From NCBI GenBank assembly GCA_963750025.1, contig CAVVPF010000022.1:7884-71883 (forward strand): a DNA stretch of 64,000 nt, in the 5' to 3' direction. The position numbers and the translations under genes are program-made. This DNA is from an uncultured Chloroflexia bacterium (GTDB taxonomy: Bacteria; Chloroflexota; Limnocylindria; QHBO01). The notes below the pieces were generated by a model. That model ran no database searches. It saw only the letters and a list, made by a program, of their open reading frames with translations, and was not told the DNA's origin. Positions 1,722 through 42,295 of the stretch are shown piece after piece (the first letter of the stretch is position 1; each line of letters starts with the position of its first letter).

Positions 1722-1769
1722 CGACTGTGATCGGTTGCCTCTCACGCATAGCCCGGCTAAACTGTCGGC

Positions 1770-2003: not shown

Positions 2004-2302
2004 TCGGTCCAGCCGTGCATTAGCGCGGCTAGCCGCTCCCGATACACCCTGAGCGCTGATCTTGTGACGAGAAGCGGTGTCTCGCGGGCACTGCGCGGCA
2101 CCCTGATCAGACCGCTCATCTCGTCCCAACGTTCGGGATACGACGGCTCTAGGGCTTCGCGGACCTCGGTCAACCACTGGTGGAGCCTGCCGCGGAACGT
2201 CTCGACCACGTTCTGGTCCTCCGGGTTGGGGAAGGTCGCCATCTCCTCGTCCAGTCGAGCGGCCGTCCGTTGCAGATCGGCGAGCACGTCCGAAGGCTTC
2301 AC
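2000..2302 (-). CDS. Hypothetical protein
   Basis: 100-aa ORF convergent with 1770-2003, with a 4-nt overlap of their 3' ends. No recognisable domain. Confidence 0.4.
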   Translation of the reverse strand: MKPSDVLADLQRTAARLDEEMATFPNPEDQNVVETFRGRLHQWLTEVREALEPSYPERWDEMSGLIRVPRSARETPLLVTRSALRVYRERLAALMHGWTD

Positions 2303-2360
2303 GATCCCATCCTATCCGTCGCGACACACTGTTGTCGCGACTCTTACGCATAGTGTCAAT

Positions 2361-3210: not shown

Positions 3211-3230
3211 GTGTAAGTACGGGAGGCACC

Positions 3231-3464
3231 ATGGCTGACTATCCAGACGTGTACGCAGACGGCATCACCATCACCGTCAATCCTCTTGGGATCGCCGTCA
3301 CCTTCACTCGCAGCGATCCGGCCACTCCTGGGGTGACTGAAACTGAGCGTCGCGAAATCGTGGCCCGCGTTCGGCTGCCCCGACAGGTGGCGGAGGGCTT
3401 GGAGACCACGCTGCAAAAGGCCCTGGCCCTTCAGGGCAAGGACACGAAGAGCATTACTCACTGA
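3231..3464 (+). CDS. DUF3467-like small protein
   Basis: The ATG at 3231 lies inside the artificially fused ORF 2064-3464. 'VYADGITITVNPLGIAVTF...IVARVRLPRQVAEGLETTLQKAL' resembles the DUF3467 pattern as I recall it. Confidence 0.45.
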   Translation: MADYPDVYADGITITVNPLGIAVTFTRSDPATPGVTETERREIVARVRLPRQVAEGLETTLQKALALQGKDTKSITH

Positions 3465-3499
3465 GGGTCCTCTCACGCATCCGGCGTAGACTCTCACGC

Positions 3500-4264
3500 A
3501 TGACGAGTGGGAAACTTTGGACGTGTCCGATCTGCGGCGTGGCAGGGAAACGGACCCAAGAACACGTCTTTGGTAACTGGCTATCTGAACTGTTCGGGAT
3601 CAGCAAGCACCCGATCGCGCTGTTCAGCACGAAGGGCGGCAGATTGTGGGCTTCGCGTGGATTCGGGACCGTGGTGGACGTTTGCGCCAGGTGCAACAAC
3701 GGATGGATGAGCGCCATTGAGGGTCGCTTCCAAACTGCCTTCTCCCGCGCCATCCTGGGGCACCCGGCAACCTTCACTGAGGCCGGCCTAGCGACGCTCG
3801 CGCACTGGTCGGCGTTAAAGGCAATCACGCTGCAGCCGCACCTTGCAGGCATGCGTGAAGAAAGCCATGTACCGATCGGTCACGTGGCTTCATTGCCCTT
3901 TGGCACTCCGGCTGGGACTCGCGTGTGGCTCGGTGCCTACACCCCGGTCACACGCTATGTCTTCTGGCAGAACGTCCCGATGGGATTGAGCCACCGGCCA
4001 CCATCCGGCGACTCCAGCTGGACCGGATACATAATGCTCATGACCGTCGGCCACCTGATGGTGGTCGTGCTCGGATTGGATGCCGAGTACGGTGACGACT
4101 TCACTGTGATCGGTCTGCCAGATGGAGTCTTCCGACCAGTCTGGCCGCTCACGGGCGGCACCTTCGAGTGGCCCCAATCCGGAGGGTTGATCCTGAATGA
4201 TCGAGGGATCGCAACCTTCTGGCCGCCGAAGGACAGGGAGTTGATCGCGTTCGGTGCGAAGTAG
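3500..4264 (+). CDS. HNH-motif protein (CxxC...EH...CxxCN), putative nuclease
   Basis: 254-aa ORF with 'CPICGVAGKRTQEHVFGNWL' and 'VCARCNNGWMSAIE', then a C-terminal domain of unknown function. A TAGACT hexamer lies 7 nt upstream of the ATG. Confidence 0.55.
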   Translation: MTSGKLWTCPICGVAGKRTQEHVFGNWLSELFGISKHPIALFSTKGGRLWASRGFGTVVDVCARCNNGWMSAIEGRFQTAFSRAILGHPATFTEAGLATLAHWSALKAITLQPHLAGMREESHVPIGHVASLPFGTPAGTRVWLGAYTPVTRYVFWQNVPMGLSHRPPSGDSSWTGYIMLMTVGHLMVVVLGLDAEYGDDFTVIGLPDGVFRPVWPLTGGTFEWPQSGGLILNDRGIATFWPPKDRELIAFGAK

Positions 4265-4554
4265 GCGGCTCTTCACGCCTCACCCCCAGGCGGGGCATAG
4301 CGCCCCCCTCCCCAAATTGAGCCACTACCCGAATGCCACCTGTGTTGACAAGCATGTGCTCACAATCGGGTAACGGCCGTACCCTTATCCGTACCCTGTA
4401 GCCGGTCGGAACGACGCGGACCCGGCCGGGTGCCACCGGGGCATTCGTGCTCAGCCGGACTCCGTCGGACCCTTTCGGCGATTCCGGTATGCGGTACCAA
4501 CCCACCACCATATCTGGTGGCTCGAAGACTCTGCCTCTACTAGATATTGTGGTC
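4265..4554 (+). repeat. Modular intergenic repeat, copy D (degenerate)
   Basis: Degenerate tandem 12-mers 'GTACCCTTATCCGTACCCTGTA' at 4379-4400, core TCCGGTATGCGGTACCA at 4483-4499, and ACTAGATATTGTGGTC at 4539-4554. It lies directly upstream of the LAL regulator. Confidence 0.6.
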
Positions 4555-4603
4555 TGCACTCTGACCGCATGAGGCTAGCGTTCCTTAGACCACGGTCGAT
4601 TAC

Positions 4604-7408
4604 GTGAGGGGCTGGACACGGCCGCGGACCAACCCGATCATGCCCCCCATGACGGGCGAGATCATCGGGCGGGAGGGCGAGCTCTCTGTAGTCCATGCTT
4701 TCCTCGATCGTCCGGCCGAGGGGCTCAGGGCGCTGGTGCTGGAGGGTGAAGCCGGGATCGGGAAGTCCACCCTCTGGCTGGCCGGGGTAGCATTCGCGCG
4801 CGAGCGGTCATTCACTGTTCTGACATCTCGTCCGGCGGAGGCCGAGCGGACGCTCCCCTACGTAGTGCTGGGCGACCTGTTCGCCGCCGCCGAGCCCGAA
4901 GCACTGGAGAATCTGCCCGCCCCGAGGCGCCGCGCATTCGAATCGGCGCTGTTGCGAGAAGAGCCTGACCTCCCGGTCGACCCTCGCGCGCTCGGCGTCG
5001 CGATCCTCACGCTTCTGCCCATGCTAGCGCCCAGTCAGCCGCTGGTGCTCGCGATCGACGACGATCAGTCGATGGACGCATCGTCGGCGGCCACGCTTCG
5101 GTTCGCGTTACGGCGGTCGATCCGCCAGCCCGTCCTTCTTTTCATCTCGAGGCGCCTCGATGGTGCGCCGGCGACAGCGCTCGAGGAGGCGATCGACCCT
5201 GCCGCGGTCACGCGGCTCCGCGTCGGTCCGATGAGTGTTGGCGCCGTCCAGCTTCTGCTACGAAGCCGGCTGGGACTCTCGTTCCCGAGGCCGACGCTAC
5301 TGCGACTCCATGAGGCGTCCGGTGGCAACCCGTTCTATGCGCTCGAGCTTGCCCGCGCCAGATCAATGGATCCGGCGCGCGACCTGACCGTGCCATTGGC
5401 GGTTCCTCCCAGACTCGAGCGGCTCGTCGCTGCACGGGTCCAGGCGCTTGACGCGCCGACTCGGCGGACGCTCCTCCTCATCGCCGCACATGGTCGCATG
5501 CCGGTCGGGCTGCTTCGCGCCCTTGAAGTAGCGCCCGAGGAACTCGAAGCGGCGCGTGCAGCGAACGTGATCGAGACCGCAGACGGCGTCGTTTCCTTCA
5601 CGCACCCGTTGCTGGCTTCCGCGCTCTACCAGGGGACGGCCAGCGAGGAGCGTCGCAGCGCCCATCGCCGGCTGGCGACGGCGCTCGACGATCCGGTCGA
5701 TCGCGGCCGGCACCTCGCGCTCGGCACGGACGAGCCAGACGACGAACTCGCCGCGACCCTCGAAACGGCAGCGAGCACAGCCCGTGATCGCGGGATGGGG
5801 ATCGCTGCCGCCGAGCTTGCGGAGCATGCCCTGCGCCTTACGCCACCCGACGCCCTCGACCACTGGCACCATCGCGCCATTGCCGCTGCTCGCGCCCACC
5901 TGGAGGCGGGCGAAGGGAGTCGCGCGCGCGCGATCGCCGCCGATGTACTGGCGCGGGCTCCAGGAGGCGCACAGCGGGCCGAAGCGCTCGTCCTCGGTTC
6001 GGAGCTGGAGGACCCGGGTCCCGCCGTGGCTCTCCTCAAGCAGGCTCTGGCCGAGGCCGCCGGGGTTCCTGCACTCGAGGCCGCTATCCACGCTGGTCTG
6101 GCCGAAGTGGGACGTGCGACAAAGGGACGCGCGTGGGCGGAGCGACACGCTCGCGACTCGCTGCGGCTCGCGGAGCGGCTCCACGACGATGCGCTACGCG
6201 CGAGGGCGCTTTCGATGCTGGGGCAAGATCGCTTCGAACGCGGTGATCCGCACGCGCTCGATCTGGTAGAGCGGGCGCACCAGCTCGCCACCTCGCTCGC
6301 CGATCCCCATCGGGTGAGCTGGGCTGATAGGTCGCTGGGTTTCGTCCTGACGTTCTCGGGAGACTACGGACGAGCGCGCGAGTGGTTGGAAGGCCAACTC
6401 GCCTACTGGCAAGTCCGCGACGAGCGGGTGCGGTCGGAGCTCCTCTGGTTTCTCGCATTGGTGGAGGTCTGGTCCGGCCGGTGGAACATCGCCAGCGAGT
6501 ACGCCGACCAGGTGCGAGAGATCAGCGTCCAGTACGGGGAGGATCCCACGGATCATCTGTCGCCGGCCCTCATCGCGCTGCACCGCGGCCAGATCGCGGT
6601 CGCGAGGGATCACTCGCAGCGCGCGTTGTCGCTGGCCAAGGGGCACCTGCTGCCCCAGCACGTCGCCATTCTGGGCGTCTGTGATCTGTGGAGCGGAAGC
6701 CCGGAGGCCGCGCTCGTGAATCTCATTAAAGCCGAGCGTACGGCCGACGTCCGCGGCTGGGATGAGCCGAACATGCGCTGGTGGCGCGCCGAGTATGCAG
6801 AGGCGCTGCTCCAGCTCGGTCGCAGAGATGACGCGGCCCAACTGGTCGCCGACTGGGAAGTGGCAGCTGTGCGACTCGGCCGTGAGCGTGTTCTGGCCCA
6901 GGTGCTGCGCTGCCGAGGGCTGATCGCGGCAGCGCGCGGCGACCTCTCGACGGGCCTGCACCTTCTCGAGGAGGCCGCGGGCCGACACGAGGCGGCTGGT
7001 GACCCGTTCAACCGCGGACGGGCACTCCTCGCGCTCGGCGTAGTCAGGCTCCGCTCGCGCCAGAAACGCACGGCCCGGGCGGCGCTGGAGGCTGCCCTAG
7101 CGGGGTTCGAAGCGCTCGGCGCCGCGGGCTGGGCCGCCACGGCCCGCGCCGAGCTCACTCGCATCGGCGGGCGCAAGCGGATCGAGGGCTTGAGCCCTTC
7201 GGAGCTGCGCGTCGCAGAACTCGCCGTCGAGGGCCGCACCAACCGCGAAATCGCATCGGCCCTGTTCCTCGGCGAACGCACCGTCGGGGGTCATCTGACC
7301 CGCATCTACGCCAAGCTCGGGGTTCGGTCCAGGACTGAGCTCGTGCGGAAGCTGCCTCCACCAGAGCCGATGTCACGCGGAGGCGCGAGCAAAGTCGAGA
7401 CGTCCTGA
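4604..7408 (+). CDS. Large ATP-binding LuxR-family (LAL) transcriptional regulator
   Basis: Walker A 'GEAGIGKS', a long helical/TPR-like middle region, and a C-terminal LuxR HTH 'LSPSELRVAELAVEGRTNREIASALFLGERTVGGHLTRIYAKLGV'. The likely start is ATG 4640 or 4649. Confidence 0.9.
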   Translation: MRGWTRPRTNPIMPPMTGEIIGREGELSVVHAFLDRPAEGLRALVLEGEAGIGKSTLWLAGVAFARERSFTVLTSRPAEAERTLPYVVLGDLFAAAEPEALENLPAPRRRAFESALLREEPDLPVDPRALGVAILTLLPMLAPSQPLVLAIDDDQSMDASSAATLRFALRRSIRQPVLLFISRRLDGAPATALEEAIDPAAVTRLRVGPMSVGAVQLLLRSRLGLSFPRPTLLRLHEASGGNPFYALELARARSMDPARDLTVPLAVPPRLERLVAARVQALDAPTRRTLLLIAAHGRMPVGLLRALEVAPEELEAARAANVIETADGVVSFTHPLLASALYQGTASEERRSAHRRLATALDDPVDRGRHLALGTDEPDDELAATLETAASTARDRGMGIAAAELAEHALRLTPPDALDHWHHRAIAAARAHLEAGEGSRARAIAADVLARAPGGAQRAEALVLGSELEDPGPAVALLKQALAEAAGVPALEAAIHAGLAEVGRATKGRAWAERHARDSLRLAERLHDDALRARALSMLGQDRFERGDPHALDLVERAHQLATSLADPHRVSWADRSLGFVLTFSGDYGRAREWLEGQLAYWQVRDERVRSELLWFLALVEVWSGRWNIASEYADQVREISVQYGEDPTDHLSPALIALHRGQIAVARDHSQRALSLAKGHLLPQHVAILGVCDLWSGSPEAALVNLIKAERTADVRGWDEPNMRWWRAEYAEALLQLGRRDDAAQLVADWEVAAVRLGRERVLAQVLRCRGLIAAARGDLSTGLHLLEEAAGRHEAAGDPFNRGRALLALGVVRLRSRQKRTARAALEAALAGFEALGAAGWAATARAELTRIGGRKRIEGLSPSELRVAELAVEGRTNREIASALFLGERTVGGHLTRIYAKLGVRSRTELVRKLPPPEPMSRGGASKVETS

Positions 7409-7447
7409 CCTTTCGTACGCAGTCGGCACGCGCCTAGCGTCTTGGCC

Positions 7448-7720
7448 ATGCCGAGCTACCTCGTCGAAACGTTCCTCGCACGCGGCGCCGCCGGCGAACG
7501 CCACGCGCGAGAGCGGCGGGCGAGCTCGGCCGCCGAGGCGCTGACGCGAGAGGGAACGCGCGTCCGCTTCGGTGGGTCCATCCACGTTCCCGAGGACGAA
7601 CTCTGCTTCTTCACCTTTGAGGCGCCGTCCGGCCGCGAGGCCGCGCTCGTCGCCCAGCGGGCCGGCCTCGAGCCGCTGCGCGTGGTGGAAGCCGTCTCGT
7701 CAATCGAAGGAGACAGGTGA
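7448..7720 (+). CDS. DUF4242-like small protein
   Basis: Starts 'MPSYLVETF...' and ends '...LEPLRVVEAV', resembling DUF4242-type proteins. The family call is from memory. Confidence 0.5.
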   Translation: MPSYLVETFLARGAAGERHARERRASSAAEALTREGTRVRFGGSIHVPEDELCFFTFEAPSGREAALVAQRAGLEPLRVVEAVSSIEGDR

Positions 7721-7721
7721 A

Positions 7722-8208
7722 ATGCGCAACCGATTCATGTTCGCACTGACCGCCGCACTGCTCGGCGTGGTGGCTATCGGCGGAATGGTGCTGGCCACGG
7801 ACCCCTCGGGGGTGACCGGCACCCCGATCGCCAAGGGACAGTTCGGCGAGATCGACGCGAAGACGCTCTTCGAGCAGCTGGCAGGCCCGAATCGACACCA
7901 AGGGCGAATCCGATCTCTACGTCTTGGAGAACAGGATCGTGCCGGGCGGGACGTTCGGCTGGCACTCGCATCCTGGGCCGAGCCTCGTGATCATCAAGAG
8001 CGGCGCCCTGACCCTCTACCGAGGAGATGATCCTACCTGCACGGCGGAGGTCTTCGAGGCAGGGTCGGGATTCGTCGATAACGGCGGCGATGTCCACCTC
8101 GTCCGTAATGAAGGCACAGTGGACGCGGTCGTGATCGTGACGTCGCTCGTTCCCAGGGGCGCCGAGCGGCGCATCGACGAGCCGAGCCCCGGTAACTGCC
8201 CCTTCTGA
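7722..8208 (+). pseudogene. Secreted cupin-domain protein, frameshifted
   Basis: GAAGGAGA RBS, then signal peptide 'MRNRFMFALTAALLGVVAIGGMVLA'. The cupin core 'GGTFGWHSHPGPSLVIIKSG...VHLVRNEG' lies in another frame. The frames join near 7885-7890 ('...FEQLAG|RIDTKGESDLYVLENRIVPGG'). Confidence 0.7.
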
Positions 8209-8232
8209 TCTTGGGGCACAGCACGCGAGATT

Positions 8233-8498
8233 CGGAGGGTGAACAGTCTGCCCACCCTCCGATTCGTCCCTCGGGCTTGCAAATCCTACCCGCGTGGATA
8301 TGTTGGCCGTTCCATGAGCCCTTATCCGAGCCCTTATTTCGGCCGTCTCAGGCGTCCCACCGCGGTCAGATTCGCCCACCAGAACCGACGTGGAACGTGT
8401 GGGTTGCTGCACCCGGAATCCGGTATGCGGTACCAAACTCCGTTTACGTTCAGCCGGGTCGAGATGCGATCCGGCTGAACCCTTATCTGAACCCTTAT
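8233..8498 (+). repeat. Modular intergenic repeat, copy A
   Basis: Hairpin CGGAGGGTG/CACCCTCCG at 8233-8261, tandem GAGCCCTTAT 12-mers at 8316-8337, core at 8419-8435, and a second tandem GAACCCTTAT pair at 8477-8498. Confidence 0.7.
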
Positions 8499-8844
8499 CT
8501 CTTCCGGGACGACAGCGGCCGGGGGAACTTCACCGATCACGAGCAAAGCCGGCCGCGTTGGATCGTCCCAATAGGGTCGCCAGACGGGCAGTCGCGTGAG
8601 GCGTTGTCAACGGCTGGGCTTCACAAGATCGACGCGTAGTATGCAACTGACGATGCGAACCCCTCCTCGGACGAAGCGATGCTGACTCTAGATGTCTGCT
8701 CGCCTGCGCCGGATCGGGCGAGGGGATTCCGCAGTACGGGAGGCTCACGATGCAGGCAGACACCGTCGACACCCCACCCGCGGCTCCCCAGGTGCCGCCG
8801 CATGCGCAGGTCATCCGGAGATGCACTAGTTCGGCGCCAGGTCG

Positions 8845-9300
8845 GGCGGCTCACCATCATCCAGGCCAACATGAACCCCGACCTTGCGATGGGAGGCGAG
8901 CTCCTGCAGAAGACTGGCGCCGCAACGTGTTCACGGTCTTCGGCGAGCCTGACATCTAGATCCGCTCAGCGGGCGGGACCGATGGCGACCGCCTCGTGGC
9001 CGAGATCCGCGGCGTCGATGTGTACGATCGGACCACCGCGGCCATCCGCTCGGACTCTCCACCGACGACATCGCCTGCTGGTTCCTCGACACCGCCTACA
9101 GCGAGGAGGCGTTCTTCGTTCGCCATGCGTACTTCGCTGGCGGCGACCGGCCGTACGAGAAGTTGGCGAAGACGCTTCGTGCGGAGATCGATGAGGCTGC
9201 CTGGGAGTCGCTGGACTCGACGGTGTCGCGCCCGTTTGAGCGGCCGTCAGCCGGCAAGATCGCAATGAGGGTGATCGGGACCCGATTCACAGGAGCCGGA
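8845..9300 (+). pseudogene. C-terminal remnant of a DNA methyltransferase (decayed)
   Basis: Reading across three frames gives '...NPDLAMGGELLQKTGAA|NVFTVFGEPDI*...EIRGVDVYDRTTAAIRSDS|TDDIACWFLDTAYSEEAFFVRHAYFAGGDRPYEKLAKTLRAEIDEAAWESLDSTVSRPFERPSAGKIAMRVI'. This is the conserved tail of a class of N6/N4 DNA methylases. There are two 1-nt deletions and an in-frame TAG at 8957-8959. The catalytic N-terminal part is absent. Confidence 0.65.
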
Positions 9301-9362
9301 CCGATGACCAGCCCGTCCGCCCGTCAACGGGTGATTGCGCCCGGACATGGGGAGAGCAGCCA

Positions 9363-9848
9363 ATGAGTGAGGCTGATCACCAGCGCTTCATGCGGATGGC
9401 CATCGCCATGGCCCGCAAGAGCGCCATCGAGGATCGGACCGGCAGTCCGTTCGGCTGCGTGATCGTCCGCGACGGAAAGGTGGTGGGGTCCGGCGTGAAC
9501 CAGGTGCTCGCCCGCCACGATCCGACCTGCCACGGCGAGATCGTGGCCATTCGCGACGCGTGCCAGCGGTTGGCCACCCACGACCTGAGCGGCTGCACCG
9601 TCTACACCAGCTGTGAGCCGTGCCCCATGTGCTACGCCGCCGCCTGGTGGGCCCGCGTCGAGGCGGTCTACTACGCCGCCGCCATCCAGGATGCCCTGGA
9701 CTACGGCGACTTCGACGACAAGCCGATCTACGACGCGATCGCCCTGGACGGCCCGGATCGCGCGGTGCCTGCCATCGAGATCCTCCGCGACGAGATGGTC
9801 GCGGTTTGGAAGGAGTTCCACGCCATCCCGGACCGGGTTCATTACTGA
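9363..9848 (+). CDS. Guanine/nucleoside deaminase (CDA fold, GuaD-like)
   Basis: Zn motifs 'CHGE' and 'CEPCPMC', plus the tail 'FDDKPIYDAI', similar to the B. subtilis GuaD-type guanine deaminase. Confidence 0.85.
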   Translation: MSEADHQRFMRMAIAMARKSAIEDRTGSPFGCVIVRDGKVVGSGVNQVLARHDPTCHGEIVAIRDACQRLATHDLSGCTVYTSCEPCPMCYAAAWWARVEAVYYAAAIQDALDYGDFDDKPIYDAIALDGPDRAVPAIEILRDEMVAVWKEFHAIPDRVHY

Positions 9849-9903
9849 CCGATCTGCCCGCGTACCATCCTCGGTCACCCGGATGACTGCGAAAGGACGA
9901 CCC

Positions 9904-10005
9904 ATGACGATCACGACCAGCCGATTCGCGGGCTTTCAGCCGGAGGCCATCCAGTTCCTGCTCGAGCTGGCGGTGAATAACGATCGGTCCTGGTTTCAAC
10001 CGCAA
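9904..10005 (+). pseudogene. 5' fragment of a DUF2461 (TIGR02453-like) gene
   Basis: 'FAGFQPEAIQFLLELAVNNDRSWFQPQ' matches the family N-terminus. Similarity stops after about 34 codons, just before repeat copy B. Confidence 0.5.
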
Positions 10006-10084
10006 CCGGCGGCCCGCGTCCGCTCCAGCAGCAGGTTCCGTTCAGGGACGTTGCGCGTCATCGCGGCGGCCCGGTAGGTGGTTA

Positions 10085-10521
10085 GCGCGTCCCCGACACC
10101 TGCCGGGGACGCCATCGGTGCGAGGCGTATCGCCCGCGCGGTGGTCGAAGGCTCGAAACCTGGAAGGGTGCACGTACACCCTCCGGTTGGAGGAGCCACG
10201 ACCTGCACGGGTGGGGTGGCTGAGCCCTTATGTGAGCCCTTATCGGCCGTGTTCCATAGGTCCCATGTCGCCCATGTTGCCATTCGCGTCGCAGGGTGGG
10301 ACGTATGGCACGGAATACCGCGCATCCGGTATGCGGTACCAGCACTCCTCGATCAGGCCGATTCGTGCTCAAAACGAGGCGAAATGGCCTCGTGCGGCGG
10401 TCATCTGAGCCCTTATCTGAACCCTTACTCGTCGGGCGCCGGTTGGTAAGGCCTCTCCAGTGCGTGATTCGGGGCTCAAGATGTGGTGCAGGGTGAGCCG
10501 GGGGCACTAGATATCGTGGTC
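10085..10521 (+). repeat. Modular intergenic repeat, copy B (most complete)
   Basis: tRNA-Arg-like minihelix at 10085-10115, hairpin at 10162-10184, tandem 12-mers at 10222-10243, core at 10325-10341, second pair at 10407-10428, and ACTAGATATCGTGGTC at 10506-10521. Confidence 0.75.
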
Positions 10522-10720
10522 GGTGCCGTCGGCACGCGTCGAGCGCTTCACCCGATCGCACATAGCTTGCGGACAGATAAGTTCCGTCATACCACGCAGC
10601 GGCAACACACGTACGCGCGCGTCCTTTCGCCATTTTAGATGGTGATCGGGTCGCCCCTGGTCGCGATAGACCGCCCTCGTTGGGCGGCCCACCGCGACGA
10701 GCCGTGCCTTCCGTTGGCGG

Positions 10721-11113
10721 TTACGGAAGAGCGGTCAGCTTGACGTAGGTGCTGAGCCCGCCCGCAGTGGAGCCAAGCGTCCAGCCCGTCGGGGCCGGCC
10801 GCGAGGCGTCCTGGGTCCGCAGCTGGATCACGACGCTGCTCGTCATGCACACCCCGGCGCGCACGACTTGGTTTGCGTTAAGGCCGTCCGGTCCAAGCAA
10901 CGCCTTGTCGGTGGCGTTCGGGCACGCGGCAGGATCCAACAGGTACTGCTCGGTGGTGACGCCGAGGATGGCCGGGAAGAACCCGATCGGCGCGTGACCC
11001 GGCTCGGCCTTTCCGTCGTGGATGTGCCAGTTGTTCGCGTTGTCGCTTGCCGCCACCGGAGTGGAGACAAAGACGGCGGTCAACACCGTCGCAAGAATGA
11101 CAAACCGACGCAT
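10721..11113 (-). CDS. Secreted hypothetical protein (Cys-pair domain 'DPAAC...GVCMT')
   Basis: Signal peptide 'MRRFVILATVLTAVFVSTPVAA'. It shares a C-x(24-25)-CMT segment with the 31669-31911 product. Confidence 0.65.
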   Translation of the reverse strand: MRRFVILATVLTAVFVSTPVAASDNANNWHIHDGKAEPGHAPIGFFPAILGVTTEQYLLDPAACPNATDKALLGPDGLNANQVVRAGVCMTSSVVIQLRTQDASRPAPTGWTLGSTAGGLSTYVKLTALP

Positions 11114-11207
11114 TTCTTACCTCTTTCACTTTCATTGACGGGACGCGCGCCGCCGCACCCTTCTGAACGGTCCCGGCGAGGCTGGCGTCCCTGTTTCCCG
11201 TCGGCGA

Positions 11208-11624
11208 CTACGAGCTGGCCGGCATGATCTGGATCGTCCCGATGAAGCGCCCGGTGTCGGGGTCGACAAGCTGGCTCTCTTCCTGGACCCGCGCGCCGGC
11301 CAGCCAGCCGCTCGTCACGCTGCCGTTCAGCACGACGCGTCCGGTGCTGAAGTTGATCTGGCCGCTGACGAGCGCAGTGAACGATCGACTCGCCGAGTTA
11401 ACCTCGACGGTGGCGCTGAAGTGCTGCGTGTTGCCGATGACGCTCTTGTCGAAGAGCGTCATCTCGATCGTGCCGCCGCCCTCCACCGTCCCGAGGTAGT
11501 AATCAGGTGCGGCCCACTGCTTCTCGAACTCGAGGACGACCGGCCGCTGTGCCGCCGCCACCGGTGTCCCAACCAGGAGGATCGTCATCAGTGACACGAC
11601 GATGCTCATTACCCTGTTCATCAC
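11208..11624 (-). CDS. Secreted hypothetical protein
   Basis: Signal peptide 'MMNRVMSIVVSLMTILLVGTPVAAA'. The start overlaps the upstream gene's stop by 4 nt. Confidence 0.65.
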   Translation of the reverse strand: MMNRVMSIVVSLMTILLVGTPVAAAQRPVVLEFEKQWAAPDYYLGTVEGGGTIEMTLFDKSVIGNTQHFSATVEVNSASRSFTALVSGQINFSTGRVVLNGSVTSGWLAGARVQEESQLVDPDTGRFIGTIQIMPASS

Positions 11625-11887
11625 CTATCTCCTTGCGATAGCGTCATCTCCATCACGGGTTGGAGCGTCCGAGCACGCCGGCTTCTGCCGGAGACGGCAG
11701 CGATGACCGCTTCGGCGGATCCGATCGGGTCGAACGCCCAGCCCTCCACGACCACCCCCAGCGATCGCTGGTCGCGGACGAGGGCTACGCTGGTCACACC
11801 CAGACGGGCGAGCGCCGAAAGCGCGTCCGAGCGAAGGCAGGCCTTCGTTCCGACCGGCATCAGCACCAGCAAGATCGCCATCGTCAC
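11621..11887 (-). CDS. Hypothetical small protein
   Basis: 88-aa ORF between the LAL regulator and the secreted-protein genes, on the same strand. Confidence 0.45.
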   Translation of the reverse strand: MTMAILLVLMPVGTKACLRSDALSALARLGVTSVALVRDQRSLGVVVEGWAFDPIGSAEAVIAAVSGRSRRARTLQPVMEMTLSQGDR

Positions 11888-11951
11888 ACCTCAACCGCAG
11901 GGGGTTCGCGGTGACGCTATGTGTGACGAGCTCTCCGGATCATCGGGGAAT

Positions 11952-14816
11952 TCATGTACGTTTCGTCCCGACCTCTGCCAGGCGCGCCGCGAGCTCGGTG
12001 CGATTCCGAACCTCGAGCTTGCGGAAGAGGTTGACGAGATGGCGCTCGACGGTTTTCGGGGAGACGAACAGAGTCGAGGCGACCTCGCGGTTCGTTGCGC
12101 CTGCGGCGACGAGGCGCGCCACTTCTTCCTCCCTCGCGGTGAGCGGCGCGCCGGCTGCGCCGCGACGCCAGGTGCGCACGCCCAGCAGGCGCAGGGACTG
12201 CTCGGCAAGGTCGCGGACCGTCTCCGCCCCGCGCTCGCGTGCCGCGACCGCGGCATGCTGGAGCACGACGACGGCTCGTTCGTCGCCGATGGCGACCAGG
12301 GCGCGCCCGAGGTCGAGCCGGATCCAGAGCGCCGCGAGCCGGTAGGGAGACGACTTGCCCGCGGCGACCGCCGCCTCGAGCGCGACGACACGCTCCTCGG
12401 GCTTGGCCGCCGCGAGCGCACCGGCGTGACCGTGCGCGAGCCGATCGAGGTCATCGAGCGGGAATTCGAGCCGATCCCTCCGTTCCACGGCCATGCGCGC
12501 GGCATTGTGCTCGCCGATGCGGCTCAACGCCTCAGCCGCCAGCAGCAGGAGCTCGCCGGTGCAACGGGGGCAACCGACGGAGGCCGCACATTCGTCGGCT
12601 GCCTCGAGCTGCGAGTGGACCGTCTCTGCCGCCTCCGTGCCGTGGAGTCGGGCCGCCCACACGGCGCGATCACCGTGCAACACGATCCGCTGGTGCTCAT
12701 TGGCCTCGTGCGCGATCTCTTGCTCCAGGAGCGTCAGCGCTTGTGCAACGTGGCCACGTTCAAGCCACACACTGGCAGCGACGCGCGCCACCCGGTGCCG
12801 AGCGCGCGGGACGTCGCCGACGCGCCGGGCGAGCTCGCTCGTCTCGCGGACGATCGCCTCAGCCTCTTCGAGCTCGCCGATCAGCGCGAGCGTCCGTCCC
12901 AGCCAGAAGCCCGCATCGACCGCAAGCCGTGGCAGCACCGCCCGTTGCGTATCGGCCCAGACACGCCGGAAGCGCGCCAAGGCCTGCCGCACTCGACCGT
13001 TCTGGCGCAGCGCCACGCCGAGGGCGAGCGCGGCTTCGAGGACCTCCTCGAGGCCGACGCCGCGGGCCGCTGTCTCGCGCTGCTCCGCCGTGCGCAGCAG
13101 CGCCTGAGGATCGCCCTGCTGCATCGCGGCTTCGTACTCGAGGCGCAGCGCATCCAGCAGGGCGCGCTGAAGCTTCGAATCGTGACGTCTTGGGCGAGCT
13201 CGCTTGCTCGCGAGCCGCCTTGCGACCGATGCCGCCTCGCGGGCAAGTGCGCGGCCCTCCGGCCCGCGCTGCTCGAGCCACAGGCAGATCGCGGCCTCAT
13301 GCGTCGTTTGCTCCAGGCTCAGCACCGCGTCATCGCGCAGAAGGTCCCGGCTTCGTGAGAGGAGCTCGCGTGCTTCGTCGGCCCTCCCGAGCGCATACGC
13401 CGCGCGGGATGCCTCCAGTGCGGCCGACGCCCGCGTTGCACGAGCTTCGGCTCGCTCTGCCACCAGCGACCACCGCGCCAATGCCTGCTTATGCTCCCCG
13501 AGCTCGTAGGAGAGCGCTGCCACGTTGGCCTGGAGAGCAACAGTTTCGGGCGCCAGCGGGTCAGCCTCGTCCGCCAGCACACCCAGCTCCTCGGCGCCGT
13601 CGGTCCCCAGGAGCCGGCGCTGGGGCGAGGTTGCGAGCCTCCCGGCGAGAGCCAGGACGGAGAGGCCGGCCGCCCGACGATGCTCCAGCGCAAGTCGCAG
13701 GAGTTGGAGATCGCCGCCTGCGTCACGCTCGAATCCTGCCGCGAGTCGACGATGGATGCGAAGGCGAACTTCCTCGGGAAGCTGTGCGGCGGCGGTGGCC
13801 CGGATCAGGTCGTGGGCTGGCTGCGCGGCGCCCCCGTGTATCTTGGCCAGTCCTCGCTCGACGAGCACGTCCAGGGCGGCCTCGACGCGTTCGGGTTGAC
13901 GGTCGAGCAGCTCGGCGGCCGCGGCGACCGAGATCGGACGTCCTGCCAGGGCGAGCGTTCCAAGCAGCGTGGCGGCGACTGGACCTGCCCCGCGCAGACG
14001 CCGCGTGAGAATCTGTTCCAGGCCGCGCCCGGCTTTGCCGTAGAGCACGAGCGCTTCGAGCCAGAAGGGGATGCCATCGGCCCGTCGCCACAGCGTGCCT
14101 GCGGCTTCTGCATCGAGCCCGGGATCGAGGGCCTGGGCCAGGGCCGTCCCGTCCTCCTGGTCCAGGGCCCCGAGATCGATGCGGTGCAGGCAAGCCTCCG
14201 GCATGCCATCGAATAGTTCCTCCCCGGGTCCGCCGGGCCGTGTCGCGGCCAGAATGGCGAGTCGCTGGTGCGACTCGGAGGCAGCACGCACCAGGTAGTG
14301 GCACAACGACAGCGAGAGATCGTCGACCCACTGCAGGTCATCGATGACGAGCAGTGCCGGCTCCACGGTGCGAAGCGCACGACGAGCAGCCTCGAAGATC
14401 CGAAGCGGCTCGAACGTGCCGGCGTCGGGTCGTGCCTCCGCGGCCGGCCCTTCAGCGACCGAGCCGAAGACCAGCGCATCCAGAGTCTCTCCGTGGCGCG
14501 GGATGGCAACCAACGCGCGGAGGAGCCCTGCCGCGGCGGCCAGCGGTACGCGGTGCTCGGACTCGAAGCCGACGACTGCGAACGATTGGATGCGCGGCGC
14601 CAGCCTGCGCGCCTCGGCGAGGAGCCGGCTCTTGCCGCAGCCGGGGACACCGGTAACCAGCGCGGTGGCCGGCCCAGCCGAAGTCGCGACGACCTCCGCC
14701 AGGGCTCGGAGCTCCATGGTTCTGCCGACGAAGGTGCTCACATCGAAGAGCCTACGCTCGCCAGCCGCACCCGGAAAGAGGCGGTCCGGACCGATCTGTG
14801 GTGGGGGAGCAGGCAA
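11952..14816 (-). CDS. Large ATP-binding LuxR-family (LAL) transcriptional regulator
   Basis: Walker A 'GVPGCGKS', a long helical repeat region, and a C-terminal LuxR HTH 'LTAREEEVARLVAAGATNREVASTLFVSPKTVERHLVNLFRKLEV'. Confidence 0.9.
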   Translation of the reverse strand: MPAPPPQIGPDRLFPGAAGERRLFDVSTFVGRTMELRALAEVVATSAGPATALVTGVPGCGKSRLLAEARRLAPRIQSFAVVGFESEHRVPLAAAAGLLRALVAIPRHGETLDALVFGSVAEGPAAEARPDAGTFEPLRIFEAARRALRTVEPALLVIDDLQWVDDLSLSLCHYLVRAASESHQRLAILAATRPGGPGEELFDGMPEACLHRIDLGALDQEDGTALAQALDPGLDAEAAGTLWRRADGIPFWLEALVLYGKAGRGLEQILTRRLRGAGPVAATLLGTLALAGRPISVAAAAELLDRQPERVEAALDVLVERGLAKIHGGAAQPAHDLIRATAAAQLPEEVRLRIHRRLAAGFERDAGGDLQLLRLALEHRRAAGLSVLALAGRLATSPQRRLLGTDGAEELGVLADEADPLAPETVALQANVAALSYELGEHKQALARWSLVAERAEARATRASAALEASRAAYALGRADEARELLSRSRDLLRDDAVLSLEQTTHEAAICLWLEQRGPEGRALAREAASVARRLASKRARPRRHDSKLQRALLDALRLEYEAAMQQGDPQALLRTAEQRETAARGVGLEEVLEAALALGVALRQNGRVRQALARFRRVWADTQRAVLPRLAVDAGFWLGRTLALIGELEEAEAIVRETSELARRVGDVPRARHRVARVAASVWLERGHVAQALTLLEQEIAHEANEHQRIVLHGDRAVWAARLHGTEAAETVHSQLEAADECAASVGCPRCTGELLLLAAEALSRIGEHNAARMAVERRDRLEFPLDDLDRLAHGHAGALAAAKPEERVVALEAAVAAGKSSPYRLAALWIRLDLGRALVAIGDERAVVVLQHAAVAARERGAETVRDLAEQSLRLLGVRTWRRGAAGAPLTAREEEVARLVAAGATNREVASTLFVSPKTVERHLVNLFRKLEVRNRTELAARLAEVGTKRT

Positions 14817-15068
14817 GAGGACAGCGCACGGACGGCGAGGCTCGCGATCAGGTGGTCGTCATGACCTTGCAGTGCCGGGCAACCCGTGACCGTATAACTG
14901 CGCACTTTCGCTCGGCCTCCCGCGCTCGTAGCACAGCGCTCAGGCGGAAATGCTTGGCATGCAAGAGGCCGCTGGTTCGAGTCCGCCGGTGACAGAACTC
15001 CGGGCGCGTTCGTGGCAACCGGACACTGACAGCGACCCGAGTCGCCCGACGATCGATGCGTTGTTAGT

Positions 15069-15279
15069 GCGGATCCTTCACCTGCCTTGGACGCCATCCG
15101 GGTCTGCGCGCGTTGCCTGCGGGTTGGTCGAGAGAAGCCACGACCTGCGCGGGGTCTCTGAGCCCTTATCCGAGCCCTTATGGATCGTGTTCCATGCGTC
15201 CCAGGTGACTCATGCCGCCCACCATGACGCTCGGTGGGACGCATGGCACGGAATACAGCGCATCGGGTATGCGGTACCA
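15069..15279 (+). repeat. Modular intergenic repeat, copy C
   Basis: Degenerate minihelix (CCTGCCTTGGACGCCAT at 15081-15097), tandem GAGCCCTTAT 12-mers at 15160-15181, and core TCGGGTATGCGGTACCA at 15263-15279. By eye it closely resembles copy B across about 170 nt. Confidence 0.7.
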
Positions 15280-15362
15280 AATCTGCCGTCTTGTGCTCGG
15301 GCAACGGCCCTAGCGCGCCAGCAGCTCGCCCAGAATCGCCCCGATCAAGTCCACCGCCAGCG

Positions 15363-16451
15363 TCAGGCCCTTGTCGGCCAGGTCAGGGCGTCGCGGCGGC
15401 AGCGGGTCACGCACAAGCCGCAGCGCGTACAGCGCTCACCGTCCAGCGCCGTGCGGCCGTCCACGACGTGGATGGCACCGTACACGCAGGAGGTCTCGCA
15501 CACGCCGCAATCGTTGCAGGCCTCCAGGTCCAGCAGCGGGACCTCCGGCCTTCCAGCCGGCCAGCCCTGGGTCAGGGCTGCTCCCACCACCTCGCGGACC
15601 GATGCGTGGCCGTGCGCATCGAGCCAGGCATCTAGCTCTCTGGCGATCTTGCCGAAGACCGATGGCCCGCGCAGGATCGCCGCGGTGCAGACCTGCACGG
15701 CAGAGGCGCCCGCCATCAGGAACTCGACCACATCGGTCCCGCGCGTGATGCCACCTACGCCGATCACCGGGAGGTCGACCGCACGGGCGATGTCGCGCAC
15801 GCAGCGCACCGCCAGGGGCTTGAGCGCCGGGCCCGACAGCCAGCCATACCCGTTCTGGCCGCCCAGTCGCGGCATCCTGGTCTCGATGTCGAGCGCCAGT
15901 ACCGGGCCAAAGGAGTTGATGGCGGCGATGCCGTCCGCCCCGGCGTCCTGGGCGAGCCGCGCCGCGCCGGCCATGTCGTGGCCATGCGGGCTGACCTTGA
16001 CGAAGACCGGCACGTCGAGCGCCCGCTTGGCGGCGCGGACCGCGCCGACCATCGGTCCCGGATCCGCGCCGATGTAGTGCGTCGACAATTCGACCGCGTC
16101 GGCGAATGGCCTGACTTTGGGCGCCAGCTCCCCGATCTCCTCCGCGGTGTAGCCCAGGCTCACGATCAGCGGCAGCCCGGCCGTGCGGGCCAGGGCGTAC
16201 TCGTGCTCGAGCCACTGCTCGGGCGGCAGCTCGGACCACAGCTCGGTGTTGACCATGCCGTGCGGGATCTCGGCCATGTTCGGCTCCGGCGGCTGAGCGG
16301 CGCGCACGGAGATGGTCTTGGCCACCAGCGCTCCCGCCCCGCCCTTGGCACAGGCCAGCATGGCCGCCCCGTCGCGCACCGGCGGGCCAGCCGCGGTCAG
16401 GATCGGGTTGCGGAACCGAAGGCCGCACACCTCCACGCTCAGGTCGGCCAT
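15363..16451 (-). CDS. PreA-like dihydropyrimidine/dihydroorotate dehydrogenase-family flavoenzyme with a C-terminal 2x[4Fe-4S] ferredoxin domain
   Basis: The class-1 DHODH/DPD fold begins 'MADLSVEVCGLRFRNPILTAAGP'. The C-terminus carries 'CNDCGVCETSC' and 'CTRCGLCVTRC'. Its start overlaps the ssnA stop (TGATG). Confidence 0.85.
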   Translation of the reverse strand: MADLSVEVCGLRFRNPILTAAGPPVRDGAAMLACAKGGAGALVAKTISVRAAQPPEPNMAEIPHGMVNTELWSELPPEQWLEHEYALARTAGLPLIVSLGYTAEEIGELAPKVRPFADAVELSTHYIGADPGPMVGAVRAAKRALDVPVFVKVSPHGHDMAGAARLAQDAGADGIAAINSFGPVLALDIETRMPRLGGQNGYGWLSGPALKPLAVRCVRDIARAVDLPVIGVGGITRGTDVVEFLMAGASAVQVCTAAILRGPSVFGKIARELDAWLDAHGHASVREVVGAALTQGWPAGRPEVPLLDLEACNDCGVCETSCVYGAIHVVDGRTALDGERCTRCGLCVTRCRRDALTWPTRA

Positions 16452-41988: not shown

Positions 41989-41990
41989 GG

Positions 41991-42281: not shown

Positions 42282-42295
42282 CGTTGCCTCCCGGC

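What the first reader, a model, noticed from the sequence alone, without database searches (positions are those of the whole stretch)
4265..15279. Four-copy modular intergenic repeat with tandem GAGCCCTTAT 12-mers exactly 103 nt upstream of a TCCGGTATGCGGTACCA core
Four same-orientation copies exist: D at 4265-4554, A at 8233-8498, B at 10085-10521 and C at 15069-15279.

**Conserved unit.** Each copy has two tandem 12-nt units (GAGCCCTTAT+NN) starting at 4379, 8316, 10222 and 15160. Each also has a 17-nt core starting at 4483, 8419, 10325 and 15263. The offsets are therefore 104, 103, 103 and 103 nt. This holds even though the intervening sequence of A and D is largely different from that of B and C.

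**Optional modules.**
- a second tandem pair in A (8477-8498) and B (10407-10428)
- a GGAGGGTG/CACCCTCC hairpin in A (8233-8261) and B (10162-10184)
- ACTAGATATYGTGGTC in D (4539-4554) and B (10506-10521)
- a tRNA-like minihelix at the 5' edge of B and C

In B and C, CGTCCC (offset 37-42) can pair with GGGACG (offset 76-81). I see no consistent ORF in any copy. Fixed spacing with a divergent filler suggests a structured RNA or a protein-binding architecture. Modular presence and absence suggests a mosaic, possibly mobile, element. I do not recognise it as any described motif.
Basis: seen in the sequence. Interest (0 to 1): 0.8.

Follow-up and report, generated by a model that had tools for sequence, protein, structure and literature searches.

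The report
Integration-site scars of stacked genomic islands
The four "mystery repeats" are attachment sites left where several small mobile gene islands inserted one after another into the end of a glutamate tRNA gene, which is a known kind of structure, here in a poorly studied group of Chloroflexota bacteria.

Summary
The interpretation as an unknown motif or a structured RNA is not.

**What the parts are**
- The 17-nt core TCCGGTATGCGGTACCA is the exact 3' end, CCA included, of tRNA-Glu(CTC) in Candidatus Limnocylindria (Chloroflexota).
- The tandem 12-mers have the layout of arm-type binding sites for a tyrosine integrase, as in lambda or L5 attP sites.
- In related viral contigs the same core is flanked on both sides by 12-mer pairs. 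The pair sequence differs between elements, and an integrase gene ends just beyond the right-hand pair.

**How widely the layout holds**
- In 83 public loci the core sits inside an intact tRNA-Glu. In 51 others it is a stray copy.
- Stray copies often carry a period-12 pair about 105 nt upstream (27 of 49). Copies inside the tRNA never do (0 of 82).
- Anchoring on the 12-mer pair instead, 69 of 83 metagenome copies have the core at +103 or +104.

**The window itself**
- The copies are junctions of a head-to-tail stack of islands with no integrase gene in the window. The cargo is two LAL regulators, a deaminase and a cupin.
- C is followed by housekeeping genes. A fifth copy lies 1.1 kb left of the window.
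- Two related strains lose homology with the window within 3–5 nt of a core.

**Verdict:** a new member of a known kind, of modest interest.

The parts
4379..4400 (+). Copy D, left (P) arm: tandem 12-nt pair GTACCCTTATCC / GTACCCTGTA. Putative arm-type integrase sites of a second specificity type.
   Evidence: Sequence read. The same GTACCCT-type pair stands at the same distance from the core in L040, L117 and L128.
4483..4499 (+). Copy D, core: 17 nt identical to the 3' end of tRNA-Glu(CTC). Presumed crossover region.
4505..4554 (+). Copy D, right-side inverted-repeat module: CCACCATATCTGGTGG ... ACTAGATATTGTGGTC. This is an alternative right (P') arm module.
   Evidence: Homologous modules lie right of the core in E (L134), L017, L022, L031, L045, L047, L050, L103, L117, L119, L121 and L122.
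4500..8418 (.). Island segment D to A, with no integrase gene. Cargo: LAL regulator (4604-7408, +), small ORF (7442-7720, +), cupin (7924-8208, +).
   Evidence: Pfam results. No integrase by tblastn. Homologues of the LAL (56%) and the small ORF (68%) lie directly beside tRNA-Glu in L027.
8316..8337 (+). Copy A, P arm: GAGCCCTTAT CC GAGCCCTTAT.
8419..8435 (+). Copy A, core.
   Evidence: Homology with the related strain L135 begins at 8416, so the left arm has been swapped at the core.
8448..8498 (+). Copy A, P' arm: a hairpin (8448-8461 / 8467-8480) followed by the pair GAACCCTTAT CT GAACCCTTAT (8477-8498).
   Evidence: The same core-plus-P' stretch is 92% identical to a site beside an intact tRNA-Glu in L049.
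8436..10324 (.). Island segment A to B, 1.9 kb, with no integrase gene. Cargo: ORF 8679-9194 and a TadA-like nucleoside deaminase (9363-9848, +). It is bounded by matching arm types.
10222..10243 (+). Copy B, P arm: GAGCCCTTAT GT GAGCCCTTAT.
10254..10308 (+). Copy B, inverted repeat in the P-arm spacer: CCATAGGTCCCA ... TGGGACGTATGG. Candidate site for an accessory protein.
   Evidence: The same inverted repeat is in C at 15189-15203 / 15235-15249 and, as GTCTCATGCGTCTC ... GAGACGCATGAGAC, in many other copies.
10325..10341 (+). Copy B, core.
10374..10428 (+). Copy B, P' arm: a hairpin (10374-10393) and the pair GAGCCCTTAT CT GAACCCTTAC (10407-10428).
   Evidence: Comparable hairpin-plus-pair arrangements follow intact tRNA-Glu genes.
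10342..15262 (.). Island segment B to C, with no integrase gene. Cargo: three small ORFs on the minus strand (10721-11113, 11208-11624, 11621-11887) and a second LAL regulator (11952-14816, -).
   Evidence: A 97% identical copy of this segment is in L222, with a different sequence beyond the core.
15160..15181 (+). Copy C, P arm: GAGCCCTTAT CC GAGCCCTTAT.
15263..15279 (+). Copy C, core with one mismatch (TCGGGTATGCGGTACCA). It is the last core copy in the window, an attR-type junction (P arm, core, then flank).
   Evidence: Genes to the right are housekeeping, with higher third-position GC. There is no 12-mer pair in the plausible P' range (about +56 to +106) to its right.

Best explanation
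**What it is**

**Parts of the unit**
- *Core.* The 17-nt core is the segment shared by the element and the tRNA gene. It comprises the last base of the T-loop, the 3' strand of the T-stem, the 3' strand of the acceptor stem, the discriminator base and CCA. Strand exchange by a tyrosine integrase occurs there (inferred).
- *12-mer pairs.* The tandem pairs about 104 nt left of the core (P arm) and about 56-95 nt right of it (P' arm) are arm-type sites, bound by the N-terminal domain of the integrase (inferred by analogy). The fixed distance on the P side would reflect the geometry of an integrase that bridges arm and core across bent DNA.
- *Right-side hairpin.* The hairpin next to the core on the right could supply a new terminator for the rebuilt tRNA gene (inferred).
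- *Spacer inverted repeat.* The long inverted repeat in the P-arm spacer is a candidate site for an accessory or excision protein (speculative).

**How the array arose**
Successive insertions into an already occupied site give the order tRNA-core-P'1 ... P1-core-P'2 ... P2-core-flank. Internal junctions therefore look like hybrid attP sites, as A and B do. The last junction carries only a P arm, as C does.

The segments between junctions have no integrase gene in the window. Either they lost it by deletion, or they are moved in trans by a cognate integrase encoded elsewhere. Such segments are known as cis-mobilizable elements.
For: **The core is a tRNA end**
- The core equals the last 17 nt of tRNA-Glu(CTC) in dozens of Limnocylindria genomes.

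**Intact examples**
- High-GC viral contigs L001, L002 and L004-L007 carry the same core with tandem 12-nt pairs on one or both sides, and the pair sequence differs between elements. In L001, L002 and L004-L006 a tyrosine integrase gene ends just beyond the right-hand pair. L007 is too short to show a gene.
- The integrases of L001, L005 and L006 have the Phage_integrase and SAM-like domains.

**Statistics**
- Of stray high-GC core copies, 27 of 49 have a strict period-12 pair starting at -115 to -95. Of cores inside the tRNA, 0 of 82 do. In the control zone -94 to -25 only 1 of 49 does.
- Some intact tRNA genes carry a pair only on the right, which is the expected attL form.
- Anchoring on the pair alone, 83 of 123 occurrences have the core downstream, 69 of them at +103 or +104. 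Another 20 have the core upstream, 11 of those beside an intact tRNA.

**Recombination at the core**
- Strain L135 shares the right side of A at 92-99% identity but has a different P arm. Homology starts at 8416.
- Strain L222 shares the B-C segment at 97% identity. Homology ends at 15284.

**Constraint on the arms**
- Among the paralogous P arms of B, C and E, the 10-mers have 0 of 20 variable columns, against 26 of 83 in the rest of the arm (Fisher p=0.0014).

**Arrays elsewhere**
- Multi-core arrays are common: L017, L040, L045, L055, L099 and L127, the contig that spans L092/L103/L119, and 28 of the 120 metagenome loci.

**Foreign composition**
- Genes between the copies have third-position GC of 0.70-0.89. 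The genes right of C have 0.85-0.90.

**Published parallels**
- Cluster J mycobacteriophage attP sites have the same layout (PMC3706429).
- Dehalococcoides carries stacked islands at ssrA, 15 of them without an integration module (PMC3146451).
Against: - No integrase gene and no tRNA-Glu lie in the 64-kb window. The head of the array was not seen. The only leftward extension I obtained ends at copy E.
- Binding of an integrase to the 12-mers is inferred from layout alone.
- No Pfam arm-binding domain was called in the N-terminal ~65 residues of the related integrases.
- Right of C I could not match the flank to the sequence next to tRNA-Glu in any other genome. In strain L222 a different sequence follows the same core. 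C may therefore be the end of the array only in this strain.
- About 45% of stray copies fail the strict pair criterion, although most of them show degenerate pairs by eye.
Confidence: 0.88

Rival explanations
1. The unit is a family of structured non-coding RNA genes or cis-regulatory RNAs. The spacer hairpin (CGTCCC/GGGACG and its extensions) would be the functional fold, and the core a conserved 3' motif.
For: - There is a long inverted repeat between the 12-mers and the core: 15 nt at 93% complementarity in C and up to 15 pairs in other copies.
- Some positions change on both sides together, for example U-A in 14 sequences and C-G in 7.
Against: - There is no Rfam match at the gathering threshold or at E<=1.
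- The RNAalifold consensus is weak: -4.66 kcal/mol, covariation term -0.29.
- The two-sided changes separate only two or three sequence types, so they represent few events.
- Whole classes of copies lack the inverted repeat (D type, L001, L002, L004-L007) yet keep the pairs, spacing and core.
- The core is explained entirely as a tRNA 3' end.
- The left half-site is a direct 9-10-nt repeat (GTCTCATGCGTCTCATGCGTCTC), which looks like a protein site.
Confidence: 0.03
2. The 12-mer pairs are operators for the neighbouring LAL/LuxR regulators and the core is a shared promoter element. The repeats would then be a regulon signature.
For: - Two LAL genes lie next to copies D and C.
- LAL, LuxR or AAA-TPR genes recur near such sites in other loci: L017, L027, L031, L092, L109, L122 and L129.
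Against: - All copies point the same way whatever the orientation of the flanking genes. B lies between convergent genes, and C is antisense to its downstream gene.
- The same layout lies next to integrase genes in viral contigs L001, L002 and L004-L006.
- The core is a tRNA end, and pairs occur downstream of intact tRNA genes.
Confidence: 0.03
3. The copies are miniature transposable elements (MITEs) or fragments of an insertion sequence.
For: - There are several dispersed copies with modular content.
- A DDE transposase gene lies nearby at 2064-3464.
Against: - No terminal inverted repeats bound the units. Only internal hairpins are present.
- Copies occur only downstream of tRNA-Glu or in arrays in one orientation.
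- Homology breakpoints between strains fall at the core, not at the unit ends.
- Target-site duplications were not examined.
Confidence: 0.02
4. The copies are true att-site remnants but are dead. On this reading they are inert scars of old integrations, kept by chance, and cannot recombine any more.
For: - There is no integrase in the window.
- C has a mutated core.
- Truncated C-terminal integrase remnants lie next to cores in many metagenome loci.
- Other loci hold cores with point mutations, such as L017, L098, L103 and L135.
Against: - The arm 10-mers of B, C and E are invariant while the rest of the arm has diverged by 18-28%.
- Close strains differ by whole segments with breakpoints at the cores.
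- An AAA-TPR cargo gene next to att sites is 91-97% identical across four species representatives.
Confidence: 0.3

Closest known systems
attP/attL/attR sites of tRNA-targeting tyrosine integrases with arm-type sites (phage lambda; mycobacteriophage L5 and Cluster J phages; actinomycete element pSAM2)
   Same: - A common core identical to the 3' part of a tRNA gene.
- Pairs of roughly 10-bp direct repeats on both sides of the core.
- An integrase gene that ends about 60-500 bp from the core in intact elements.
- Repeat sequence that differs between integrases.

The Cluster J description (PMC3706429) matches point for point. What I say of lambda, L5 and pSAM2 rests on my own knowledge.
   Different: - The host phylum is Chloroflexota and the target is tRNA-Glu(CTC).
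- The common core is short: 17-20 nt, against 44 bp in the Cluster J phages.
- All the 12-mer pairs, on both arms, point the same way.
- In the window the sites are not next to any integrase gene and occur as an array.
- Binding has not been tested.
Tandem accretion of genomic islands and cis-mobilizable elements (ICESt1/ICESt3 family, Streptococcus thermophilus; Pavlovic et al. 2004, as cited in PMC3146451)
   Same: - Several direct att copies downstream of one target gene.
- Segments between them that lack any integration gene but keep att sites.
   Different: - A different integrase lineage and a different host.
- No conjugation genes were identified here among the ORFs scanned.
- Mobilisation in trans has not been shown here.
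Dehalococcoides ssrA genomic islands (McMurdie et al. 2011, PMC3146451)
   Same: - The same phylum.
- Stacks of islands downstream of a tRNA-like gene, each bounded by a direct repeat of its 3' end.
- 15 of those islands lack an integration module and were proposed to be cis-mobilizable.
   Different: - Those islands use a serine recombinase (DsiB), a 20-bp repeat of the tmRNA gene and no arm-type repeats.
- Here the related intact elements encode tyrosine integrases, and the sites have complex P and P' arms.
Integron cassette arrays
   Same: An ordered, one-directional array of short segments without a recombinase gene, each bounded by a recombination site.
   Different: - No IntI-type integrase and no attI or attC sites.
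- The sites here are tRNA-derived cores with arm repeats.
- Cargo genes lie in both orientations and each segment holds several genes.

Membership tests
att sites of tRNA-targeting tyrosine-integrase elements | The core sequence is identical to part of a tRNA gene (the attB) | tested here: met
   The 17-mer equals the 3' end of tRNA-Glu(CTC). ARAGORN confirmed this in 23 of the 30 loci submitted to it, and 83 cores sit in the tRNA sequence context.
att sites of tRNA-targeting tyrosine-integrase elements | A tyrosine integrase gene lies adjacent to the site in intact elements | tested here: met
   Met in related loci: L001, L002, L004, L005, L006, L021, L034 and L088. Pfam found the Phage_integrase and SAM-like domains. 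Not met inside the window, where tblastn found no integrase.
att sites of tRNA-targeting tyrosine-integrase elements | Repeated arm-type sites on both sides of the core, specific to each element | tested here: met
   Met at the sequence level. Pairs stand at about -104 and at +56 to +95. At least seven pair types were seen, each consistent within an element.
att sites of tRNA-targeting tyrosine-integrase elements | The integrase binds the arm sites and recombines at the core | not testable with these tools
   This needs EMSA or footprinting and recombination assays. Indirect support: homology breakpoints between strains fall at the core.
att sites of tRNA-targeting tyrosine-integrase elements | The island is bounded by an intact tRNA (attL) on one side and a core repeat (attR) on the other | tested here: inconclusive
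   The right end (C) fits. The left end lies outside the window, and the extension obtained ends at a fifth copy. Complete tRNA-plus-copy examples exist in L055, L099 and L127.
Tandem accretion arrays / cis-mobilizable elements | Several att sites in direct orientation, with segments between them that lack an integrase | tested here: met
   Five cores point the same way. There is no integrase in the 64 kb.
Tandem accretion arrays / cis-mobilizable elements | The segments are excised or moved in trans by an integrase encoded elsewhere | not testable with these tools
   Only indirect signs: conserved arm 10-mers and differences in segment content between close strains.
MITE / insertion sequence | Terminal inverted repeats and target-site duplications at the unit ends | tested here: not met
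   Only internal hairpins were found, with no terminal inverted repeats. Target-site duplications were not looked for. Copies are restricted to the tRNA-Glu locus context.
Described structured RNA family (Rfam) | A match to a covariance model, or a conserved fold supported by covariation | tested here: not met
   No Rfam hit over the units. The RNAalifold consensus is -4.66 kcal/mol with little covariation.
Integron | An IntI integrase with attI, and attC sites that bound single-gene cassettes | tested here: not met
   No homologue of the related tyrosine integrases lies in the window; an IntI-specific search was not run. The sites are tRNA-derived, and the segments hold 2-4 genes in both orientations.

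The most novel reading that the evidence does not exclude
The tRNA-Glu(CTC) locus of Limnocylindria may work as a gene-capture platform. On this reading, small segments without their own integrase (2-6 kb, often carrying LAL or STAND-type regulators) keep fully functional P and P' arms. They would be excised, exchanged between species and re-inserted in trans by integrases of co-resident phages or elements. The result would resemble an integron in effect, but be built from lambda-type attachment sites.

Three observations hint at this without proving it:
- the arm 10-mers are conserved;
- close strains differ by whole segments, with breakpoints at the cores;
- a cargo gene next to att sites is 91-97% identical across four species.
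Probability: 0.3. Interest if true: 0.55.

Novelty: new member of a known kind. Interest (0 to 1): 0.27.

Why it matters
**Annotation value**
- It removes a false lead. A repeat that looked like a new RNA or regulatory motif is ordinary site-specific recombination DNA.
- It marks window positions from about -1100 to 15280 as a stack of horizontally acquired islands.

**What it offers beyond that**
- It defines an integration hot spot, tRNA-Glu(CTC), for a class of soil and freshwater Chloroflexota known here mostly from metagenome-assembled genomes.
- It defines the anatomy of the sites: a 17-nt core, several arm-site types and their spacing.
- The library search found no paper that mentions both Limnocylindria and integrase.

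**Possible uses**
- Drawing island boundaries in these genomes.
- Linking viral contigs to their hosts through the shared core.
- Providing integrase and attP pairs as future genetic tools.

The frequency of segments without an integrase gene but with intact-looking arms raises a testable question: are they moved in trans?

Tried and rejected
**RNA reading**
- Rfam at the gathering threshold over the whole window, and at E<=1 over 3400-15500, gave nothing on the units.
- RNAalifold on 29 P arms gave only a weak consensus. I dropped the RNA reading.

**Cargo genes**
- PADLOC and NCBIfam scans of the cargo proteins found no defence system. They gave only generic LuxR-type HTH hits and a TadA-like deaminase.

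**Integrase in the window**
- tblastn with five related integrases found none.
- Six-frame reading just right of the arms of D, A and B showed no integrase remnant.

**Finding the head of the array**
- The exact-protein look-up reached only a 5.9-kb contig, which ends at copy E.
- A metagenome scan with an E-specific 35-mer found nothing.
- Look-ups for the PreA-like gene and the cupin were not on record.
- The window's own genome was not among the 120 genome loci returned.

**Upstream hairpins**
- The GGAGGGTG/CACCCTCC hairpin and the 'minihelix' are not general parts of the unit. Most copies elsewhere have no hairpin there.

**Transposon reading**
- Checked and not supported.

**Right flank of C**
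- I tried to match it to the tRNA-Glu flank of other genomes and found no homologue.

Full report
**1. Checking the observation**

- The 17-mer TCCGGTATGCGGTACCA occurs exactly at 4483, 8419 and 10325, and with one mismatch at 15263. All four are on the + strand. None of 100 shuffles reached four matches.
- GAGCCCTTAT units with a 12-nt period start at 8316/8328, 10222/10234 and 15160/15172. Second pairs start at 8477/8489 and 10407/10419.
- The pair-to-core offsets are 104, 103, 103 and 103 nt.
- Codon-position GC shows the four units lie in non-coding stretches.

Two details need correcting. D's pair reads GTACCCTTAT/GTACCCTGTA, and C's core has a mismatch.

**2. The first clue: viral contigs**

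I scanned a viral-contig collection for the core. It turned up in several high-GC contigs: L001, L002 and L004-L007. In these the core is flanked by tandem 12-nt direct repeats, about 100 nt to the left, about 55-85 nt to the right, or both.

The repeat sequence differs from contig to contig:
- TGAGCCCTTAT
- TGGCAACCAYC
- GGACCCCTATC
- GTAGCAACTATC
- CAGCCCTTAT

Within an element the repeats on the two sides match each other. Just beyond the right-hand pair, a gene on the opposite strand ends with the C-terminal motif of tyrosine recombinases. Pfam confirms the Phage_integrase and SAM-like domains in three of these proteins.

This is the textbook picture of an attP site with arm-type integrase sites. 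Cluster J mycobacteriophages, for example, have a tRNA-derived common core about 100 bp from the end of int, flanked by pairs of 10-bp imperfect direct repeats (PMC3706429).

**3. Identity of the core**

Nearly all are Chloroflexota of the class Candidatus Limnocylindria.
- ARAGORN places the 17-mer at the very 3' end of tRNA-Glu(CTC) in 23 of the 30 loci I submitted.
- Read from L015, the tRNA ends ...ACCGGTTCGAATCCGGTATGCGGTACCA.
- The core is therefore the last T-loop base, the 3' strand of the T-stem, the 3' strand of the acceptor stem, the discriminator A and CCA.
- The window itself has no tRNA-Glu. Its only tRNA is Arg(TCT) at 39642.

**4. Does the architecture generalise?**

Counting all distinct sites gives three groups:
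- 83 cores sit in the intact tRNA context.
- 51 are stray copies in high-GC DNA.
- 12 are in low-GC surroundings. Most of these look like chance matches, though the GC cut-off also caught real copies in L058, L098 and L134.

A strict period-12 repeat (a 10-mer with at most one mismatch) that starts at -115 to -95 occurs as follows:

| Site class | With the repeat | Total |
|---|---|---|
| Stray high-GC copies | 27 | 49 |
| tRNA-embedded cores | 0 | 82 |
| Stray copies, control zone -94 to -25 | 1 | 49 |

Most stray copies that fail the strict test show degenerate pairs by eye. Some intact tRNA genes have a pair only on their right side, at about +59 to +83. That is the expected attL form.

As an independent test, I anchored a metagenome scan on GAGCCCTTATNNGAGCCCTTAT alone. 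It gave 123 occurrences:
- 83 have the core downstream, 69 of them at +103 or +104.
- 20 have the core upstream, 11 of those beside an intact tRNA.
- 16 have no core within 140 nt.
- 4 lie at contig edges.

**5. Reading the window with this model**

Repeated insertion into an occupied site gives the order tRNA-core-P'1 ... P1-core-P'2 ... P2-core-flank.

| Copy | Left of core | Right of core |
|---|---|---|
| E (outside the window) | GAGCCCTTAT pair | inverted-repeat module |
| D | GTACCCT-type pair | inverted-repeat module |
| A | GAGCCCTTAT pair | hairpin + GAACCCTTAT pair |
| B | GAGCCCTTAT pair | hairpin + GAGCCCTTAT/GAACCCTTAC pair |
| C | GAGCCCTTAT pair | no pair; housekeeping genes follow |

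- A and B have pairs on both sides, as internal hybrid junctions should.
- C has only the left pair. It is followed by housekeeping genes: a DHO_dh-family gene, an amidohydrolase and a molybdopterin oxidoreductase. Their third-position GC is 0.85-0.90, against 0.70-0.89 inside the array.
- D and the fifth copy E carry a left pair plus a different right-hand module, the inverted repeat CCACCATATCTGGTGG ... ACTAGATATTGTGGTC. This module recurs to the right of many cores elsewhere, including directly after intact tRNA genes in L031 and L047.
- E was found on a short contig that overlaps window 1-4638 and extends 1231 nt further left.

The segments between junctions carry LAL regulators, a cupin, a TadA-like deaminase and small ORFs. 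No integrase homologue exists anywhere in the 64 kb.

**6. Evidence that the cores are recombination points**

Two related strains give natural experiments.
- L135 carries the same deaminase segment (99%) and the same right side of junction A (92%). Its left arm is of a different type (TGACCCCT). Homology with the window begins at 8416, three bases before the core.
- L222 carries the B-C segment at 97% identity up to 15284, five bases past the core. Unrelated sequence follows, with a ribbon-helix-helix-like ORF by eye.

In both cases the break in homology falls at the core.

**7. Are the sites still under selection?**
- Among the paralogous P arms of B, C and E, the four 10-mers show 0 of 20 variable columns. 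The rest of the arm shows 26 of 83 (Fisher one-sided p=0.0014).
- Cargo moves between species. An AAA-TPR gene next to att sites is 91-97% identical at the protein level in four species representatives.
- An LAL gene 56% identical to the window's first LAL lies directly beside tRNA-Glu in L027.
- There are also signs of decay. Many metagenome loci keep only a 30-140-residue C-terminal remnant of an integrase next to the core, and some cores carry point mutations.

Both decay and continued use are therefore plausible, and I cannot separate them here.

**8. The spacer hairpin and the RNA hypothesis**

It runs 15 nt at 93% complementarity in C. In the commonest type it reads GTCTCATGCGTCTC ... 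GAGACGCATGAGAC.

Several points argue against an RNA gene:
- The left half is itself a 9-10-nt direct repeat, which looks like a protein site.
- Whole classes of copies lack the inverted repeat yet keep the pairs, spacing and core.
- RNAalifold gives a weak consensus, and the two-sided changes separate only a few sequence types.
- Rfam finds nothing.

I treat the inverted repeat as a candidate site for an accessory or excision protein. This part is speculative.

**9. Comparison with what is known**

The anatomy matches the attP, attL and attR sites of tRNA-targeting tyrosine integrases. The array matches 'tandem accretion' with cis-mobilizable elements.

Within the same phylum, Dehalococcoides carries stacked islands at the tmRNA gene. 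Fifteen of them lack an integration module, although those islands use a serine recombinase and a plain 20-bp repeat (PMC3146451).

The library search found no paper that mentions both Limnocylindria and integrase. I therefore call this a new member of a known kind.

**10. Verdict**
It is wrong on novelty and on RNA.
- The mechanism is a stack of integrated islands whose junctions are attachment sites at the tRNA-Glu(CTC) 3' end (confidence 0.88).
- That the 12-mers are integrase arm sites is an inference from layout (about 0.7).
- Whether the segments still move is open.
- Interest is modest.

Noticed in passing
L134:1-330 (about window -1230 to -900): A fifth copy of the unit (E) lies just left of the window. 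It has a GAGCCCTTAT pair, B/C-type filler, an exact core at L134:103-119 and a D-like inverted-repeat module on its right. The array therefore extends beyond the window.
   Followed up: partly
CGGGGACGC). A third copy, 91% identical, lies far from any core, right after the stop of a minus-strand gene. In strain L222 a 58-nt stretch that overlaps the C copy (window 15074-15131) is absent. It behaves like a small independent insertion.
   Followed up: partly
window 14881-14990 (+): A conserved tRNA-like element of about 105 nt, with a GGTTCGAGTCC T-loop. In L176 it has a perfect T-arm and ends in CACCA. It lies upstream of the second LAL gene. Copies about 87% identical are in other island loci (L176 twice, L252) and one about 97% identical in L222. 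ARAGORN does not call it, and the Rfam tRNA model scores only 13.9 bits. Dehalococcoides ssrA islands also carry a 'pseudo-tRNA' (PMC3146451).
   Followed up: partly
window 4505-4554; L050, L119, L122 and other loci: The inverted-repeat module (CCACAAYATCT... / ...AGATRTTGTGG) is AT-rich in a 69% GC genome and lies right of about 15 cores. In L050, L119 and L122 a second, partial core (TGCGGTACCAA) follows it about 95 nt later. It looks like a miniature, cargo-less insertion or the arm of a different integrase family.
   Followed up: partly
L031, L092, L109, L122 (next to cores); L027:4984-7996: Large AAA-TPR or LAL-type regulator genes recur immediately beside these att sites. One gene is 91-97% identical in protein sequence across four species representatives. 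Homologues of the window's first LAL and of its neighbouring small ORF lie right after tRNA-Glu in L027. PADLOC gave no defence-system match for the window's LAL proteins.
   Followed up: partly
L157, L180, L189, L224, L227, L232, L233, L238: Short C-terminal remnants of tyrosine integrases (about 30-140 residues) lie next to cores in many metagenome contigs. This suggests that integrase genes are often lost by deletion while the att site survives.
   Followed up: no
L025, L026, L042, L044, L104, L124, L126, L130, L131 and others: Many tRNA-Glu genes that lack a 12-mer pair on their right (apparently unoccupied sites) share a conserved flank. It is a strong hairpin (ACGCCCCCGG ... CCGGGGGCGT), then a gene that begins ...RRLVILAEGEFG... 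The window's flank right of C is different.
   Followed up: no
window 2064-4264 (+): A DDE transposase gene (weak IS1/IS240 Pfam hits) and a following 254-residue ORF with no Pfam match lie inside the E-D segment. This looks like an insertion sequence nested in an island.
   Followed up: no
window 40241-42545: There are diverged direct repeats of 48-204 nt at about 1-kb spacing (40241/41256, 40851/41869) and at 323-nt spacing (42019/42342). They probably come from adjacent paralogous genes just downstream of the tRNA-Arg at 39642.
   Followed up: no
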